64,000 bases of DNA, taken from the NCBI RefSeq assembly GCF_046105845.1, contig NZ_CP151004.1. One strand, 5' to 3'. Source of the stretch: Escherichia coli. Lineage in GTDB: Bacteria > Pseudomonadota > Gammaproteobacteria > Enterobacterales > Enterobacteriaceae. Positions 34,262-57,144 of this stretch are shown here, piece after piece. A program made the translations under genes and the position numbers. Positions within the stretch are counted from its first letter, which is position 1, and the number at the start of each line of letters is the position of its first letter. The notes below the pieces were generated by a model. That model saw nothing but the letters and a program-made list of their open reading frames with translations. It ran no database searches and was not told the origin of the DNA.

Positions 34262-34733
34262 ATATCTATTACTCTCCCGAGAGTAAAACTATCAAATCAA
34301 TGAGTAACCGATACAGCCTCACAAATTCTTTCAGATAATTAACCCGTCACTGCGGCACGTTCTCTCGTAAGGCGTGCCTGCAGTGTAATCCAGTATGTAT
34401 CTGGCATAGTTGACGGTTTAATAGAACTCAATTCCTCTCCCAGGTCACCAACAACGATATCTTGTATAACACCCCAGGAGATACGACATTATGATGAGAT
34501 GAGGTATGCTCCTCAGCGCCAATCAACGCCAGGGCTGGGCCAGTTTTGAGATCAGACTCATTCCCGGACTGACTTCAGGCGACATATATCAATGACGTTG
34601 GGGCAATAAAAGATAGCCGATGTAATACATCTATTCAAATTTGTGATACATGTCAAAAAATTGGTTGACCAAACTCGTTATTTATATAAGGGCACTTACG
34701 AAGTGCACTCTTTTTTAAAGCGAGGAAGTACCA

Positions 34734-34835
34734 ATGAAAGAGAATAAAGTACAGCAAATCAGTCATAAACTGATTAATATCGTTGTTTTTATCGCAATTG
34801 TAGAATACGCCTATTTATTTCTCCATTTCTATTAA
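34734..34835 (+). CDS. ykgR: Small membrane protein YkgR (33 aa)
   Basis: ORF MKENKVQQISHKLINIVVFIAIVEYAYLFLHFY; matches recalled YkgR; hydrophobic C-terminal half. Confidence 0.7.
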   Translation: MKENKVQQISHKLINIVVFIAIVEYAYLFLHFY

Positions 34836-35157
34836 TAACGGCAGTAAACTGTTCACTTCAGTGATATTTAAAATATGCATCCTCTCCCTTTTTGTAAGTA
34901 ATTATTATATCCGTGGGAGAGGAATACACGCTGTCAGGTAATCAATCATACTGCGATAAATCATCGGCCAGTAAAGTGGAGATAACCTCCATTCTCGAAA
35001 AAGCGAAACTATCATCAATCACTCATCCAGGCGTTTATGGGAGCGTCGCCAACGGCTGCTAACAATGCCAGACTTCCCCGTTGGGGAAATTCCACATACC
35101 ACAAATAGTCACAGGGATTGGGTGTTGAAATGATCCGGATGAGCATGTATCTTTATG

Positions 35158-35175
35158 GTTATGTTATAACATAAC
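35158..35175. promoter_or_regulatory. Zur box: perfect 18-bp palindrome GTTATGTTATAACATAAC upstream of ykgM
   Basis: Perfect palindrome read directly 9 bp upstream of the ykgM start; matches Zur-box consensus. Confidence 0.85.
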
Positions 35176-35183
35176 AGGTAAAA

Positions 35184-35450
35184 ATGATGAAACCCAATAT
35201 CCATCCTGAGTATCGTACTGTGGTGTTCCATGACACCAGTGTTGATGAGTACTTTAAAATCGGCTCGACTATCAAAACAGACCGTGAGATTGAGCTGGAT
35301 GGCGTAACGTATCCGTACGTGACAATTGATGTCTCTTCGAAATCGCACCCGTTCTATACAGGGAAGCTGAGAACAGTAGCATCAGAAGGAAATGTTGCAC
35401 GGTTCACCCAACGTTTTGGTCGTTTTGTTAGCACGAAAAAGGGGGCGTGA
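35184..35450 (+). CDS. ykgM: Zinc-independent ribosomal protein L31 paralog (type B)
   Basis: 88 aa [18 protein letters not shown]...; lacks the Zn-ribbon Cys pairs; Zur box upstream. Confidence 0.92.
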
Positions 35451-35590
35451 TGAAAGTCCTTAACTCTCTGCGTACCGCAAAAGAACGCCATCCAGACTGT
35501 CAGATTGTGAAGCGAAAAGGACGGCTATATGTGATTTGTAAATCTAATCCACGTTTTAAGGCCGTTCAGGGTCGTAAGAAAAAACGTTGA
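35450..35590 (+). CDS. ykgO: Ribosomal protein L36 paralog
   Basis: 46 aa [46 protein letters not shown]; start overlaps ykgM stop (TGATG). Confidence 0.9.
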
Positions 35591-35996
35591 TTCAAAATTC
35601 GACGGATTAATGATATTTGTCTGATTAATAATCAGACCTGATTAATGTTGGTGTATTTATTACACCAGCATTAATTTTCTTGGGGATGTATCTTCCTGTT
35701 CATTTAAGGTCAACTGCCTGACGTTTCTCTCCGAATATTCCATTATATTAATGTTGACTTGTTAACCAGGTGCGCCCTGTATGCTGGCATCAACTCTCTT
35801 TTAGACTGAACACGCCACTCAGTTTCCTCCCTTTGCGACGCAGCCTGCATTTACACTCAAACGGTTAAGATGATAAATGTGGTAAATCTGTTGGTACTGA
35901 CATAAAAACGTTTACGTCACAGGAACGGCCTGATCCACCGGTAACCCCATCGCCGACGTTCGAGTGCCAGTTAGAGTAACGCGCACAGATGACTGA

Positions 35997-53836: not shown

Positions 53837-54061
53837 ACGTTAATAACGACCGACTCTTCACTGTGCAACATTGTGTCAGGTAGTCCCTCTGCGTTCAATT
53901 CCAGGGTCTGCTTTGAGCGAGAAAGAGGGGACTATCCAGCAATGGAGATCACCCAAAAGAAAAAACCACCTGGCTCCCTCGACAACCTTCATCCAGGCAT
54001 TTAGCCTCAATCAACATTTTTATATCTGTCAGGTTACTTCATGATGAAAACTGATCATTAT

Positions 54062-54315
54062 CGTTGTTTTTGTTGCAATAGTAGAATACGCGTATTTATT
54101 CCTCCATCTCTATTAATAACGGCAATAAACTGTTCACTTCACTGATATTTAAAATATGTATCCTTTTCAAGCTGTTCAGCGGCGTAAGAAAAAGTATTAA
54201 TTATGAATTCGACGATTTAACCATATCTGTCTGATTGGTAATCATCCGTGATTAATGTTGGTCTATTGATTACGCCAGCATTAACCGCTTAGGGATGTAT
54301 TCTTCCTGTTGATAT
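54062..54315 (+). repeat. Degenerate paralogous copy of the ykgR 3' half fused to the ykgO 3' end plus downstream sequence
   Basis: About 90% identity over about 100 bp to 34776-34885 and about 75-80% over about 145 bp to 35561-35705, by eye; ykgM/ykgO and the Zur box are missing from this copy. Confidence 0.7.
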
Positions 54316-54607
54316 CCCCCCCTCGAAAAAGAGAGAAAATAAAACTGTGTCCAATATTACTCTACCACTCCAGACCGAAGCATCGGTGGGATTAGCAGGA
54401 CGACTGGTACAGAAGGATGGTATAGCGTCATTTGTCGGGCATTCCATTGCCATAATAATGACAATTTTGAATCAATAGACATGCTTCTTGATCATGTCTT
54501 AAAAATTAGACCATGAGCCTTACGAAGCATCATTTTTACTGACTGGTATTAACTTTGCTATCATATAAACTCTGTTCTTAAAAACGCGCCCAGAATTTAT
54601 ATGATTT

Positions 54608-54745
54608 TCATTGTTTTTCTGCCTGTAAAGAAATTTCTTTTTCAGTGCTGTCGATGGTTGAACCGACGGCAGTAATCGTTTTGGCGACGCTACTGAAGGA
54701 TATTAAAGACAGTGTAACCACAACAATTAAAGAATAGATAATATT
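54608..54745 (-). CDS. Hypothetical small hydrophobic protein (about 45 aa from MNIIYSLIVVVTLSLISF)
   Basis: ORF only; single predicted TM/signal-like segment; no homology recognised. Confidence 0.2.
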   Translation of the reverse strand, partial: NIIYSLIVVVTLSLISFSSVAKTITAVGSTIDSTEKEISLQAEKQ

Positions 54746-54963
54746 CATGCTAATTCTCCTGACAATTGAGAGGATGAGTTTTATATACAAAGGCATTAAA
54801 TATGAGTCATGTTTACTCCCTGTGAAAATAATCTTACTGTAATTAAACCTTCATCTCCTTCGGAGTGAGCAATGCATAATATAATGCATCTTGCTATTCA
54901 AAACAGTGGATATAAATTTTCCTCGCGACCTATTTAATAAAACGTGAATATAAAAGTTAGTCT

Positions 54964-55515
54964 TCAGTTTGCAGATGCAGTAGGTCTGATGGTAATTTCG
55001 GTTGTATCAACTGTTTCGGGAGATTCAATAATATGCCTTACAGCACGGGCAATATCCGCGGGTTGAAGTGCAACAGAACGGTAGGCGTCCATTGACTTCA
55101 TGGTTTCCACATGGGTAATGGTTGAAGCCAGTTCACTTTCTACAACCCCAGGATTTACGCAGGTCACACGGATTTTCGAGCTTTCCTGCCGTAAGCCATC
55201 CGAAATAGCCCGTACTGCAAATTTTGATGCACAATAGACTGCGCCTGTGGGCACAACAGAAAGGACACCAATAGAACCAAGATTGATTATCTGACCGGAA
55301 CCCTGTGCTTCCATCACCGGAAGTACAGCGCCAATTCCCCAAAGTACGCCTTTGATATTCACGTCAATAGTGAGTTCCCATTCATCTTGTTTTCCTGCTG
55401 CAAGCGGTGAAAGCGGCATAACGCCCGCATTATTGATAAGAACATCAACTCGCCCCCAGCTATCCAGCGCTGCTTGCACGAAATCGGCCATGGACTGCCG
55501 GTCTGTGACATCCAA
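54964..55515 (-). pseudogene. 5'-truncated short-chain dehydrogenase/reductase (SDR) gene
   Basis: Contains SDR catalytic region (NNAG, YCASK) but lacks the N-terminal Rossmann TGxxxGxG segment; reading frame terminates at the junction with the integrase fragment. Confidence 0.6.
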
Positions 55516-55686
55516 CTTGCATTTTCAGAAATGGGAGGCTGGGAGTCTATCGAAATGGTTCGTCGATATGCTCACCTCGCGCCTAATCACCTTACCGAAC
55601 ACGCACGGCAAATAGACTCAGTCCTGAACCCATCGGTCCCAAATTTGTCCCAGTCAAAAAATAAGAAAGGTACTAATGATGTGTAA
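55516..55686 (+). pseudogene. C-terminal fragment of a tyrosine (P4-type) integrase abutting thrW
   Basis: [20 protein letters not shown] is a typical integrase C-terminus including the catalytic Tyr region; ends 15 bp from the tRNA 3' end; no N-terminal or core domain present. Confidence 0.6.
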
Positions 55687-55700
55687 CTTATTGATTTAAA

Positions 55701-55776
55701 TGGTGCCGATAATAGGAGTCGAACCTACGACCTTCGCATTACGAATGCGCTGCTCTACCAACTGAGCTATATCGGC
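55701..55776 (-). tRNA. thrW: tRNA-Thr (anticodon CGU)
   Basis: 76-nt cloverleaf read on minus strand: GCCGATATAGCTCAGTTGGTAGAGCAGCGCATTCGTAATGCGAAGGTCGTAGGTTCGACTCCTATTATCGGCACCA; anticodon loop contains CGT. Confidence 0.93.
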
Positions 55777-55890: not shown

Positions 55891-57144
55891 TTACGCACGA
55901 ATGGTGTAATCACCAATGCCGATCCACTTGTAAGTGGTCAGTGCTTCCAGCCCCATTGGGCCACGCGCGTGGAGTTTTTGTGTGCTTACCGCCACTTCCG
56001 CACCCAGACCAAACTGGCCGCCGTCGGTAAAACGCGTAGAGGCGTTAACGTAAACAGCGGACGAATCCACTTCGTTAACAAAACGCTGGGCGTTGCGCAT
56101 ATCGCGGGTCAGGATCGCATCGGAGTGTTGTGTGCCGTGTTCACGAATATGGGTGATGGCATCGTCAAGATCGCTGACGATTTTGACGTTCAAATCTAAT
56201 GACAGAAACTCATCGTCATACTCTTCCGCTTTCACAGCCACCACCTTCGCGGGGCCTGTCTGCAACTGCGCCAGCGCAGCTGCATCTGCGTGTAATGTCA
56301 CGCCGCTTTCCGCCATTTGTTTGCTTAATGCGGGCAGGAAGCTGTCGGCGATGTTTTTATTCACCAGCAACGTTTCAACCGTATTACATGTGCTCGGACG
56401 CTGGGTTTTCGCGTTGACGATTACTTTCAGGGCTTCAGCGATCTCTGCACTTTCATCAACATAAATATGGCATACGCCTATACCACCTGTGATCACCGGG
56501 ATCGTCGACTGTTCGCGGCACAGTTTATGCAGGCCAGCGCCACCACGCGGGATCAGCATGTCGATGTATTTATCCATACGCAGCATTTCACTGACCAGCA
56601 CACGGTCAGGATTATCAATCGCCTGCACGGCACCCGCCGGTAAGCCGCAGGATTTCAGGGCGTCCTGAATCACCGCCACCGTTGCAGCGTTAGTGCGACA
56701 CGTTTCTTTGCCGCCGCGCAGGATCACCGCGTTACCTGTTTTCAGGCACAGCGAAGCGACATCTACCGTCACGTTCGGGCGCGCTTCATAAATCACGCCA
56801 ATCACCCCCAGCGGCACGCGACGGCGCTCCAGACGCAGACCACTGTCCAGTACGCCGCCATCGATTACCTGCCCCACCGGATCGGCGAGATTACACACCT
56901 GACGCACATCGTCGGCGATGTCTTTCAGCCGTGCGGGCGTCAGTGCCAGACGGTCAAGCATCGCTTCGCTAAGGCCATTGGCACGCGCGTCAGCAACATC
57001 CTGGGCGTTAGCGTTGAGGATGATTTCGCTTTGTGCTTCCAGTTCATCGGCGATTTTTTCCAGCACACGATTTTTTTCGCGGCTGGAGAGTTGCGCTAAT
57101 TTATACGAGGCTTGCTTTGCGGCAATGCCCATTTGTTCCAGCAT
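55891..57144 (-). CDS. proA: Gamma-glutamyl phosphate reductase ProA
   Basis: 417 aa; sequence matches recalled ProA. Confidence 0.93.

What the first reader, a model, noticed from the sequence alone, without database searches (positions are those of the whole stretch)
54062..54315. Degenerate second copy of the ykgR / ykgO-3' region, in direct orientation about 19 kb from the first
Sequence at 54062-54165 is about 90% identical to the 3' half of ykgR plus downstream (34776-34885), and 54168-54315 is about 75-80% identical to the last codons of ykgO plus downstream (35561-35705). In the second copy the ykgM-ykgO genes and their Zur box are absent, with the junction near 54160-54170. The two copies bracket the ecp-ykgJ-yagU-pao-MFS-hydrolase-LysR block as direct repeats. 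They could mark an ancient duplication, the ancestral state before ykgMO insertion, or recombination substrates that allow deletion or amplification of the intervening adhesin/aldehyde-oxidase region.
Basis: seen in the sequence. Interest (0 to 1): 0.6.

Follow-up and report, generated by a model that had tools for sequence, protein, structure and literature searches.

The report
Dead ykgR/ykgO remnant beside thrW
The second copy is real but is a dead scrap of the ykgR and ykgO genes, most likely left when two alternative versions of this E. coli chromosome stretch were joined end to end, so it is an evolutionary scar and not a working element.

Summary
Window 54048-54164 is 91% identical to 34767-34883 (ykgR codons 12-33 plus 51 nt). 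Window 54164-54313 is 79% identical to 35554-35703 (last 11 ykgO codons, stop, terminator). The 670 bp between them in copy 1, which hold the Zur box, ykgM and most of ykgO, are missing from copy 2.

Copy 2 is a pseudogene. It has no start codon, in-frame stops lie just upstream, and its substitutions look neutral. RefSeq already annotates the ykgR part as an N-terminally truncated pseudogene; the ykgO scrap is unannotated. Copy 2 occurs in 883 of 5426 complete E. coli genomes.

It is not an empty site predating ykgMO, because it keeps ykgO coding sequence and outgroup species have intact ykgMO. It is not an active recombination substrate: the longest exact match is 16 bp and no amplification junction was found.

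A full-length form (ykgR, the same deletion scar, then hyp-SDR-thrW, without ykgMO/ecp/pao) is the only ykgR locus in three E. coli genomes and in a species-level divergent Escherichia lineage. The ykgR part groups by species and the ykgO part by version.

Copy 2 is therefore an old, mosaic relic, most likely of an alternative ykgMO-less version stacked behind the ecp-pao version. Interest is low to moderate.

The parts
34735..34836 (+). ykgR, intact 33-codon small membrane protein gene (copy 1)
   Evidence: Sequence. Annotated as YkgR in the nearest genome. A Pfam family PF28062:YkgR is listed for the orthologue.
34767..34883 (+). Copy 1, segment A: ykgR codons 12-33 with the stop, plus 51 nt downstream
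   Evidence: 91% identical to 54048-54164, E 7e-42.
34884..35553 (+). 670 bp present only in copy 1: Zur box 35158-35175, ykgM 35187-35450 and the first 35 codons of ykgO (35450-35590)
   Evidence: No counterpart in copy 2. The Zur box is unique in the window. Translations.
35554..35705 (+). Copy 1, segment B: last 11 ykgO codons and stop, an 8-bp hairpin, and a 16-bp hairpin followed by TTTTCTT (ykgO terminator). It overlaps the 3' end of ykgL on the minus strand.
   Evidence: 79% identical to 54164-54313. Fold energy -33.5 kcal/mol, z -5.0. ykgL maps to 35625-35850.
53837..54047 (+). Spacer between the LysR stop codon and copy 2, with no homology to copy 1. Its right end is the left junction of copy 2.
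   Evidence: Found in at least 592 E. coli genomes at 87-100% identity.
54048..54116 (+). ykgR pseudogene: codons 12-33 and the stop only, with TGA TGA immediately upstream in frame and no ATG/GTG/TTG start
   Evidence: RefSeq annotates it as 'small membrane protein YkgR, incomplete, missing N-terminus'. Substitutions among 14 alleles are 8 nonsynonymous to 3 synonymous.
54117..54164 (+). Non-coding tail of segment A in copy 2, ending at the ykgMO deletion scar at 54164/54165
   Evidence: Some alleles and all single-locus genomes keep 9 more bases (TTTTCYTGC) at the scar.
54165..54200 (+). ykgO pseudogene scrap: last 11 codons and stop (FQAVQRRKKKY*)
   Evidence: Not annotated in any genome inspected (features 'none').
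54201..54315 (+). Degenerate copy of the ykgO terminator region. The first hairpin is lost, the second is weakened, and the T tract is replaced by CCGCTTAGGG.
   Evidence: fold -30.7 kcal/mol, z -3.2. No terminator call.
54520..55776 (-). Right flank that travels with copy 2: small hypothetical gene (truncated to 62 codons here), SDR oxidoreductase pseudogene, integrase scrap and tRNA-Thr (thrW) at 55701-55776

Best explanation
Copy 2 is a non-functional relic, made of a ykgR pseudogene fragment, a ykgO pseudogene fragment and a decayed terminator. It is the left end of a second, ykgMO-less version of the chromosome interval between ykgR and thrW.

Two versions of that interval exist in the genus. 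Version 1 is ykgR-ykgM-ykgO-ecp(-pao...). Version 2 is ykgR, a 670-bp deletion scar, the ykgO 3' scrap, then hyp-SDR-LysR-thrW.

In the lineage of this window both versions lie in tandem. Version 1, through the LysR gene and a 210-bp spacer, is joined to the middle of the ykgR gene of version 2. That join cut off the promoter and first 11 codons of the second ykgR and killed it.

The most economical route is a single event with one homologous crossover to the left and one illegitimate join to the right (homology-facilitated illegitimate recombination). This step is inferred, not shown.

Before the join, the ykgR part of version 2 kept recombining with the ykgR allele of version 1 within E. coli, so it looks young. 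The ykgO scrap lies beyond the indel, could not recombine, and stayed old.

Today the element does nothing. It makes no peptide and has no Zur box, and it is too diverged to drive homologous recombination.

Shown: the relic status, the mosaic ages and the existence of version-2-only genomes. Inferred: the order of events and the joining mechanism.
For: 1. Pseudogene status. Copy 2 has no start codon and in-frame stops lie just upstream. Only 11 ykgO codons remain. There is no Zur box, no promoter-like site upstream on the + strand and no Rfam match. Among 14 alleles, 8 of 11 substitutions in the ykgR frame are nonsynonymous, including changes to Pro, Thr and Ser in the membrane helix. PGAP marks it as a pseudogene.

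2. Version-2-only genomes. E. coli GF4-3, 6EVA and wlxctx60 carry fdeC, full-length ykgR, the same scar, the ykgO scrap, then hyp-SDR-LysR and thrW. GF4-3 has no ykgMO, ecpC or paoC anywhere in its chromosome at megablast sensitivity. GF4-3 and 6EVA differ by 3.6% over 19 kb, so the arrangement is not recent. Contigs from a species-level divergent Escherichia lineage (85-91% identical to the window) have the same arrangement and the same scar.

3. Mosaic history. Neighbour-joining trees put segment A together by species (E. coli copy 1, copy 2 and the single locus together; the divergent lineage groups with the other non-coli species, 78%). Segment B groups by version (copy 2, single locus and divergent lineage, 100%). 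In A, 5 sites support species and 0 support version. In B, 0 support species and 9 support version. Divergence between the copies is 9% in A and 23% in B (Fisher p = 0.003). For the single locus against copy 1 it is 3/117 against 36/156 (p = 4e-7).

4. Relationship of the single locus to copy 2. The single-locus A segment shares two derived states with copy 2. All 14 copy 2 alleles share further derived states that the single locus lacks (positions 45, 54 and 95, and the TAA stop). The single locus is therefore sister to copy 2, not a copy1-left/copy2-right hybrid. No copy 1 allele in 5073 genomes carries the single-locus SNPs.

5. Outgroups. E. albertii and another Escherichia species have intact ykgR-ykgM-ykgO-B, so version 2 is a deletion derivative.
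Against: The joining event itself is not observed, and no genome was found with version 2 before its ykgMO deletion (intact ykgMO followed by hyp-SDR).

The model needs both versions to have coexisted in the E. coli lineage from its split with the sister lineage until the join.

The 165 bp of ykgR promoter and 5' half in the single-locus genomes show only one fixed difference from copy 1 (an indel in a T tract), where about four would be expected at the rate seen in segment A. That fits a copy 1 origin of the 5' half as well as it fits allelic recombination.

The trees rest on 117 and about 150 columns. Only two non-coli species, one divergent lineage and 14 copy 2 alleles were sampled.
Confidence: 0.55

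Rival explanations
1. An old tandem duplication followed by trimming. The 19.3-kb unit from mid-ykgR to the spacer duplicated in an ancestor of E. coli and its sister lineage. Two deletions then removed ykgMO and the second ecp-pao block from the second unit. Ectopic gene conversion later homogenised the ykgR parts within E. coli. The version-2-only genomes would be secondary deletions made by recombination between the two ykgR segments, which is the reader's 'recombination substrate' idea acting in the past.
For: Tandem duplication with later loss is the commonest bacterial rearrangement (established knowledge). The spacer-end to A-start junction has the form of a duplication join. Recombination within A would regenerate an intact ykgR, as seen in GF4-3, 6EVA and the divergent lineage. 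Every state in the single-locus A segment is either the copy 1 or the copy 2 state, which patchy heteroduplex repair could produce. The 5' half of the single-locus ykgR is copy-1-like.
Against: It needs more events: a duplication, two deletions, ectopic conversion of a 117-bp repeat over 19 kb, and at least two independent deletions. The single-locus A segment is copy-2-like on the left and copy-1-like on the right, the reverse of a single crossover. A crossover left of the first informative site would have at most 8 bp of homology. Copy 2 alleles share derived states in B and at the ykgO stop that the single locus lacks, so the single locus lies outside the sampled copy 2 diversity. No amplification junction occurs in 5426 genomes.
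Confidence: 0.3
2. Copy 2 is the ancestral empty site and ykgM-ykgO were inserted into copy 1.
For: Copy 2 and the single-locus genomes lack ykgMO and the Zur box.
Against: Copy 2 contains the last 11 codons, the stop and the terminator hairpin of ykgO in frame. E. albertii, another Escherichia species and about 80 other enterobacterial species carry ykgM-ykgO, and the two Escherichia species have ykgR directly upstream. The scar sequence is shared by all ykgMO-less forms, consistent with a single deletion.
Confidence: 0.02
3. Copy 2 is functional today. It might encode a small protein (the truncated YkgR frame or the +1-frame 34-codon ORF at 54041-54145, MMKTDHYRCFCC...), act as a regulatory RNA or terminator, or serve as a live recombination site controlling loss or gain of the ecp-pao block.
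For: The +1 ORF is open in all alleles inspected, and 6 of 11 substitutions fall on its third codon positions. A weakened hairpin persists.
Against: The codon-position distribution of 2/6/3 does not differ significantly from uniform (reasoned). The first ATG is private to the window type and no Shine-Dalgarno sequence or promoter-like site precedes the ORF. There is no Rfam hit. The T tract of the terminator is lost. The longest exact match between the copies is 16 bp, below the roughly 20-30 bp needed for RecA-dependent exchange in E. coli (and established knowledge). Copy 2 is absent from 84% of E. coli genomes.
Confidence: 0.05

Closest known systems
RefSeq/PGAP pseudogene 'small membrane protein YkgR, incomplete; missing N-terminus' between the LysR gene and hyp-SDR in O157:H7 and other E. 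coli
   Same: It is this very feature. The 69-nt ykgR remnant (window 54048-54116) is annotated at the same position in many genomes.
   Different: The annotation is automatic. In some genomes it reads only 'hypothetical protein'. The adjoining ykgO scrap and terminator remnant are unannotated. Nothing is said about origin. The 15 listed of 30 papers mentioning ykgR did not appear from title or abstract to address a second copy; none was opened for this.
The ykgR / ykgM-ykgO locus of E. coli K-12 (Zur-repressed zinc-independent paralogues of ribosomal proteins L31 and L36; YkgR, a 33-residue membrane protein)
   Same: Copy 2 derives from this cassette. It has the same order and orientation, 91% identity over the ykgR 3' half and 79% over the ykgO 3' end.
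   Different: Copy 2 lacks the ykgR promoter and first 11 codons, the Zur box, all of ykgM and 35 of 46 ykgO codons. K-12 itself has no copy 2, because the CP4-6 prophage and a truncated LysR gene (yagP) occupy that place.
Scars of homology-facilitated illegitimate recombination, or trimmed tandem duplications (general mechanisms, recalled from the literature and not looked up here)
   Same: There is one seamless homologous side (an intact ykgR at copy 1) and one abrupt non-homologous join in mid-gene (spacer to ykgR codon 12). The result is a direct repeat that brackets the incoming DNA.
   Different: Neither mechanism can be demonstrated from sequence alone. No microhomology longer than a few bases is evident at the join.
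thrW-linked variable region of E. coli (attachment site of prophage CP4-6 in K-12)
   Same: Copy 2 lies 1.4 kb from thrW, with an integrase scrap and truncated genes in between. Its presence varies between strains, at 16% of genomes.
   Different: Copy 2 is not part of a prophage or integrative element. The bracketed block contains no integrase or transposase in this window, and the repeats are gene fragments, not att sites.

Membership tests
YkgR small membrane protein (Pfam PF28062) | Complete ORF of about 33 codons with a start codon and ribosome-binding site | tested here: not met
   Copy 2 matches codons 12-33 only. TGA TGA lies directly upstream in frame and there is no ATG, GTG or TTG in frame.
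YkgR small membrane protein (Pfam PF28062) | Purifying selection on the C-terminal hydrophobic helix | tested here: not met
   Among copy 2 alleles, 8 of 11 substitutions are nonsynonymous, including Leu to Pro, Ile to Thr and Phe to Ser. The intact genes differ only synonymously in this stretch, apart from one conservative Val/Ile variant in the window's own allele.
Type B ribosomal protein L36 (YkgO) / ykgMO operon | 46-codon ORF downstream of ykgM under a Zur box | tested here: not met
   Only the last 11 codons remain. ykgM is absent. The single Zur box in the window is at 35158-35175.
Intrinsic terminator (of ykgO) | Stable GC-containing hairpin followed by a T tract | tested here: not met
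   Copy 1 has a 16-bp hairpin followed by TTTTCTT. In copy 2 the hairpin has internal mismatches and is followed by CCGCTTAGGG. The scan finds no terminator there.
Attachment-site or target-site duplication of a mobile element or genomic island | Short near-identical direct repeats at both ends, with an integrase or transposase inside | tested here: not met
   The repeats are 117 and 150 bp gene fragments separated by a 670-bp indel and are 9% and 23% diverged. No integrase or transposase lies between them in this window.
Active homologous-recombination substrate (direct repeats giving deletion or amplification) | Uninterrupted identity above about 20-30 bp, and recombinant junctions present in the population | tested here: not met
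   The longest exact run is 16 bp in this window. None of 5426 genomes has the duplication junction. The three genomes without the block have the reverse SNP order and are old. The actual rate was not measured.
Dispersed repeat family (REP, BIME, ERIC and the like) | Many copies per genome | tested here: not met
   There are two copies in the window. Segment B of copy 2 occurs once per genome at the median and at most twice.
Known RNA family | Match to an Rfam covariance model | tested here: not met
   No relevant match with E up to 1 around either copy.

The most novel reading that the evidence does not exclude
The two copies are a fossil of 'allele stacking'. Two alternative versions of the ykgR-thrW interval arose before E. 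coli split from a sister Escherichia lineage; they persisted in the E. coli lineage and were then fused in tandem by one illegitimate join. One version carries the zinc-independent ribosomal paralogues ykgMO together with the ecp pilus and pao genes, and the other lacks them all. Copy 2 would then be a datable scar that orders how E. coli assembled its ecp-pao region. It would also identify natural lineages (GF4-3, 6EVA, wlxctx60 and a cryptic Escherichia lineage) in which at least GF4-3 lacks ykgMO altogether and the others lack it at this locus.
Probability: 0.5. Interest if true: 0.35.

Novelty: new member of a known kind. Interest (0 to 1): 0.25.

Why it matters
It matters little for function, because the element is inert. 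It has three modest uses.

It corrects annotation. A ykgO pseudogene scrap sits next to the already flagged ykgR pseudogene.

It shows that the ecp pilus, the pao aldehyde oxidoreductase and the Zur-regulated ykgMO genes, which are nearly universal in E. coli, are missing as one block from a few natural E. coli. In GF4-3 they are absent from the whole chromosome; in 6EVA and wlxctx60 they are absent at this locus. A sister lineage also lacks them within the 16 kb read. These strains are ready-made comparators for work on zinc limitation and adhesion.

It is also a clean small example of a mosaic relic, with one half kept young by recombination and the other half old. That is a caution against dating duplications from a single identity figure.

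Tried and rejected
I used YkgM to fetch loci from 80 species instead. Only two Escherichia loci were informative. tblastn did not detect ykgR next to ykgM outside Escherichia, which is a limited test.

2. The E. albertii flank downstream of ykgO has no homology to hyp-SDR, so it did not reveal the ancestral right flank.

3. I considered whether GF4-3 and 6EVA are an outgroup (cryptic clade I). Their proB and proA divergences fall inside normal E. coli diversity. The paper describing GF4-3 only calls it a novel ST, ST9286 (PMC8115903). No clade claim is made here.

4. I looked for hyp homologues next to an intact ykgMO. The contigs were short, ended at the repeat, or showed the ykgMO-less form again.

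5. The +1-frame ORF hypothesis was rejected because the codon-position skew is not significant.

6. The idea of an sRNA or known RNA family was rejected.

7. The 9-bp deletion at the scar looked at first like a marker of all copy 2 alleles. It is polymorphic: F9792 and MFDS keep the 9 bp, and one single-locus genome lacks them.

8. A composite query for 'spacer directly abutting hyp' was not run, because the search tool would merge the two halves in stacked genomes and could not separate the two cases.

Full report
**Observation**

BLASTN of window 53900-54500 against the whole window gives two collinear direct matches and nothing else of note.
- 54048-54164 matches 34767-34883: 106/117 identical, no gaps, E 7e-42.
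- 54164-54313 matches 35554-35703: 119/151 identical, E 6e-30.

The first segment (A) is ykgR codons 12-33 with the stop, plus 51 nt downstream. The second (B) is the last 11 codons and stop of ykgO plus its terminator region. In the homologous frames copy 2 reads KLIIIVVFVAIVEYAYLFLHLY* and FQAVQRRKKKY*. Copy 1's ykgO ends [11 protein letters not shown].

The 670 bp that separate A and B in copy 1 are absent from copy 2. They hold the only Zur box of the window (35158-35175), ykgM and 35 of 46 ykgO codons. The copies are direct repeats 19,281 bp apart. They bracket ykgMO, ykgL, ecpRABCDE, ykgJ, yagU, paoABCD, an MFS transporter, a hydrolase and a LysR regulator.

**What copy 2 is today**

- In the ykgR frame, TGA TGA lies immediately upstream and there is no canonical start.
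- No promoter-like site precedes it on the + strand and no terminator is called.
- The ykgO terminator is decayed. In copy 1 it is a 16-bp hairpin followed by TTTTCTT. In copy 2 the hairpin carries mismatches and the T tract is gone.
- Rfam finds nothing at either copy.
- I aligned 14 copy 2 alleles from E. coli genomes. All have the same left boundary.
- Eight of 11 substitutions in the ykgR frame are nonsynonymous, among them Leu to Pro, Ile to Thr and Phe to Ser within the membrane helix. Their codon positions (2/6/3) do not favour any frame.
- The +1-frame ORF at 54041-54145 has its first ATG only in the window type.

Copy 2 is therefore a pseudogene. RefSeq already says so for the ykgR part ('small membrane protein YkgR, incomplete, missing N-terminus'). 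The ykgO scrap is unannotated.

Copy 2 is present in 883 of 5426 complete E. coli genomes. In some of them it is cut short by an AbiE island. K-12 lacks it because CP4-6 and a truncated LysR gene occupy the site.

**Test of the 'recombination substrate' idea**

I built two composite queries from the flanks of the two copies.
- The amplification junction (copy 2 left flank joined to copy 1 right flank) occurs in none of 5426 genomes.
- The deletion junction is approached in three genomes: GF4-3, 6EVA and wlxctx60.

In GF4-3 and 6EVA the annotated order is fdeC, a full-length ykgR, the ykgO scrap, hyp, SDR, LysR and thrW, with no ykgMO, ecp or pao. The same junction hit and feature list indicate this order for wlxctx60. 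GF4-3 lacks ykgMO, ecpC and paoC anywhere in its chromosome.

Other strains with deletions in this region have IS1 at the junction. In this window the longest exact identity between the copies is 16 bp. That is below the roughly 20-30 bp needed for RecA-dependent exchange, a figure taken from established knowledge.

**Are the three genomes recent deletions?**

Several results say no.
- GF4-3 and 6EVA differ by 3.6% over the 19-kb locus.
- With E. albertii and another Escherichia species as outgroups, the single-locus A segment shares two derived states with copy 2 (positions 9 and 33) and lacks the copy 1 derived state at position 27.
- All 14 copy 2 alleles share further derived states that the single locus lacks: positions 45, 54 and 95, and TAA instead of TGA at the ykgO stop.
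- Along the sequence the single locus is copy-2-like on the left and copy-1-like on the right. A deletion crossover would give the reverse order.
- No copy 1 allele in 5073 genomes carries the single-locus states.

**Other Escherichia**

E. albertii and a divergent Escherichia species (L011, about 88% identical to the window) have intact ykgR-ykgM-ykgO plus segment B. In L011, ecp then runs straight into thrW. Copy 2 is therefore a deletion derivative, not an empty site.

A search with the small hyp protein that flanks copy 2, followed by context look-ups, found contigs of another species-level divergent lineage. The protein name comes from Escherichia sp. KTE114, and the contigs are 85-91% identical to the window. 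These contigs carry a full ykgR, the same ykgMO deletion scar, the ykgO scrap, hyp, SDR, LysR and an integrase. They have no ykgMO, ecp or pao within 16 kb.

An assembly labelled E. fergusonii shows the same arrangement, but its flanks are 97.5-98.4% identical to GF4-3 and 6EVA, so the label is doubtful.

**Mosaic history**

Neighbour-joining trees with 500 bootstraps give discordant results for the two segments.
- Segment A groups by species. E. coli copy 1, copy 2 and the single locus fall together, and the divergent lineage joins L011 (78%).
- Segment B groups by version. Copy 2, the single locus and the divergent lineage fall together (100%), and the copy 1 sequences form their own group (100%).

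Site counts agree: 5 species-grouping and 0 version-grouping sites in A, against 0 and 9 in B. Divergence between the copies is 9% in A and 23% in B (p = 0.003). For the single locus against copy 1 it is 3/117 against 36/156 (p = 4e-7).

The ykgO-derived half of copy 2 therefore separated from copy 1 before E. coli split from the divergent lineage. The ykgR-derived half shared an ancestor with copy 1 after that split.

**Interpretation**

The simplest account has two versions of the ykgR-thrW interval.
- Version 1 carries ykgMO and ecp (plus pao and its neighbours in E. coli).
- Version 2 has the ykgMO deletion scar followed by hyp-SDR-LysR.

The versions share the left flank and ykgR, where ordinary allelic recombination keeps them alike within a species. 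They differ beyond the scar, where 150 bp of homology sit between non-homologous DNA and cannot recombine.

In the ancestor of the stacked genomes, version 1 DNA was joined, after the LysR gene and a 210-bp spacer, to codon 12 of the version 2 ykgR. That left an intact ykgR at copy 1 and a beheaded one at copy 2. One homologous crossover and one illegitimate join would be enough. This step is inferred.

The main rival is an old tandem duplication of the 19.3-kb unit, followed by two trimming deletions, ectopic conversion of segment A, and later deletions between the A segments to give the single-locus genomes. It explains the copy-1-like 5' half of the single-locus ykgR. It needs more events, and it needs a crossover within the first 8 bp of homology or patchy heteroduplex repair.

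I put stacking at about 0.55 and duplication with trimming at about 0.3. Under either model the element is a relic, and I rate that conclusion at 0.9 or higher.

**Comparison and verdict**

The ykgR part is already flagged by automatic annotation. The ykgO scrap, the mosaic ages and the version-2-only lineages do not appear in the titles or abstracts of the 15 listed of 30 papers that mention ykgR. This is a new member of a known kind, a gene-fragment scar at the edge of a variable region next to a tRNA gene. It is of modest evolutionary interest and of no evident functional interest.

Noticed in passing
L006 (E. coli GF4-3, NZ_CP053258.1) and L007 (6EVA, NZ_CP138428.1), whole loci: These natural E. 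coli lack ykgM-ykgO, the ecp pilus operon, ykgJ, yagU and paoABCD at this locus. GF4-3 lacks ykgMO, ecpC and paoC genome-wide at megablast sensitivity. They also lack the rcl and ykgEFG region between betA and fdeC, with gene scraps left behind.
   Followed up: partly
window 34692-34715: A terminator-like hairpin (GCACTTACGAAGTGC followed by a T tract) sits between the ykgR promoter region and its Shine-Dalgarno sequence, so it may be a leader or attenuator. The single-locus genomes all carry 2-4 nt deletions in the T tract.
   Followed up: no
L009 (O157:H7 WS4202, NZ_CP012802.1 343500-349500): In O157:H7 the genuine ykgR (copy 1) is frameshifted, and an IS66-family element (ISEc8) is inserted between ykgR and ykgM. 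That strain therefore has two dead ykgR copies.
   Followed up: no
rows H56-H63 (several E. coli chromosomes): Several strains have large deletions in the betA-ykgM-ecp-pao region with IS1 at the junction (betA-IS1-ykgM, ecpC-IS1-ykgM). Two (H56, H57) have betA next to paoC with no IS1 listed under the match. Where a junction element is listed it is IS1, not the copy 1/copy 2 repeats.
   Followed up: no
window 54520-54796 (- strand): The small hypothetical gene next to copy 2 is 92 codons in O157:H7 but is cut to 62 codons here by a stop. One source names a homologue 'multiple stress resistance protein BhsA'. Its alleles differ by up to about 30% in protein sequence within E. coli.
   Followed up: partly
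window 55891-57144 (proA) and 54964-55700: proA differs by 5.1% from the otherwise closest genome (19KM1831) while proB differs by 1.0%. A truncated SDR gene and an integrase scrap lie next to thrW. These are signs of repeated recombination and island turnover at this tRNA.
   Followed up: partly
L011 (GTDB species representative labelled E. coli SCPM-O-B-8794), 10717-18790: In this roughly 88%-identical Escherichia species the ecp operon runs directly into thrW. There is no ykgJ, yagU, pao, MFS, hydrolase, LysR, copy 2 or hyp-SDR.
   Followed up: no
L104 (GCA_048109445.1, labelled Escherichia fergusonii): The locus is 97.5-98.4% identical to E. coli GF4-3 and 6EVA across thrW, proA, proB and phoE, so the species label looks doubtful.
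   Followed up: no
window 54041-54145 (+ strand): A 34-codon Cys-rich ORF (MMKTDHYRCFCCNSRIRVFIPPSLLITAINCSLH) lies in the +1 frame of the ykgR remnant. It is open in all alleles seen, but no signals or significant constraint support it.
   Followed up: yes
loci L096, L097, L105 and L108: In about 270 genomes copy 2 is truncated at about window 54278-54280 by an island that carries an AbiEi/AbiEii toxin-antitoxin (abortive infection) pair.
   Followed up: no
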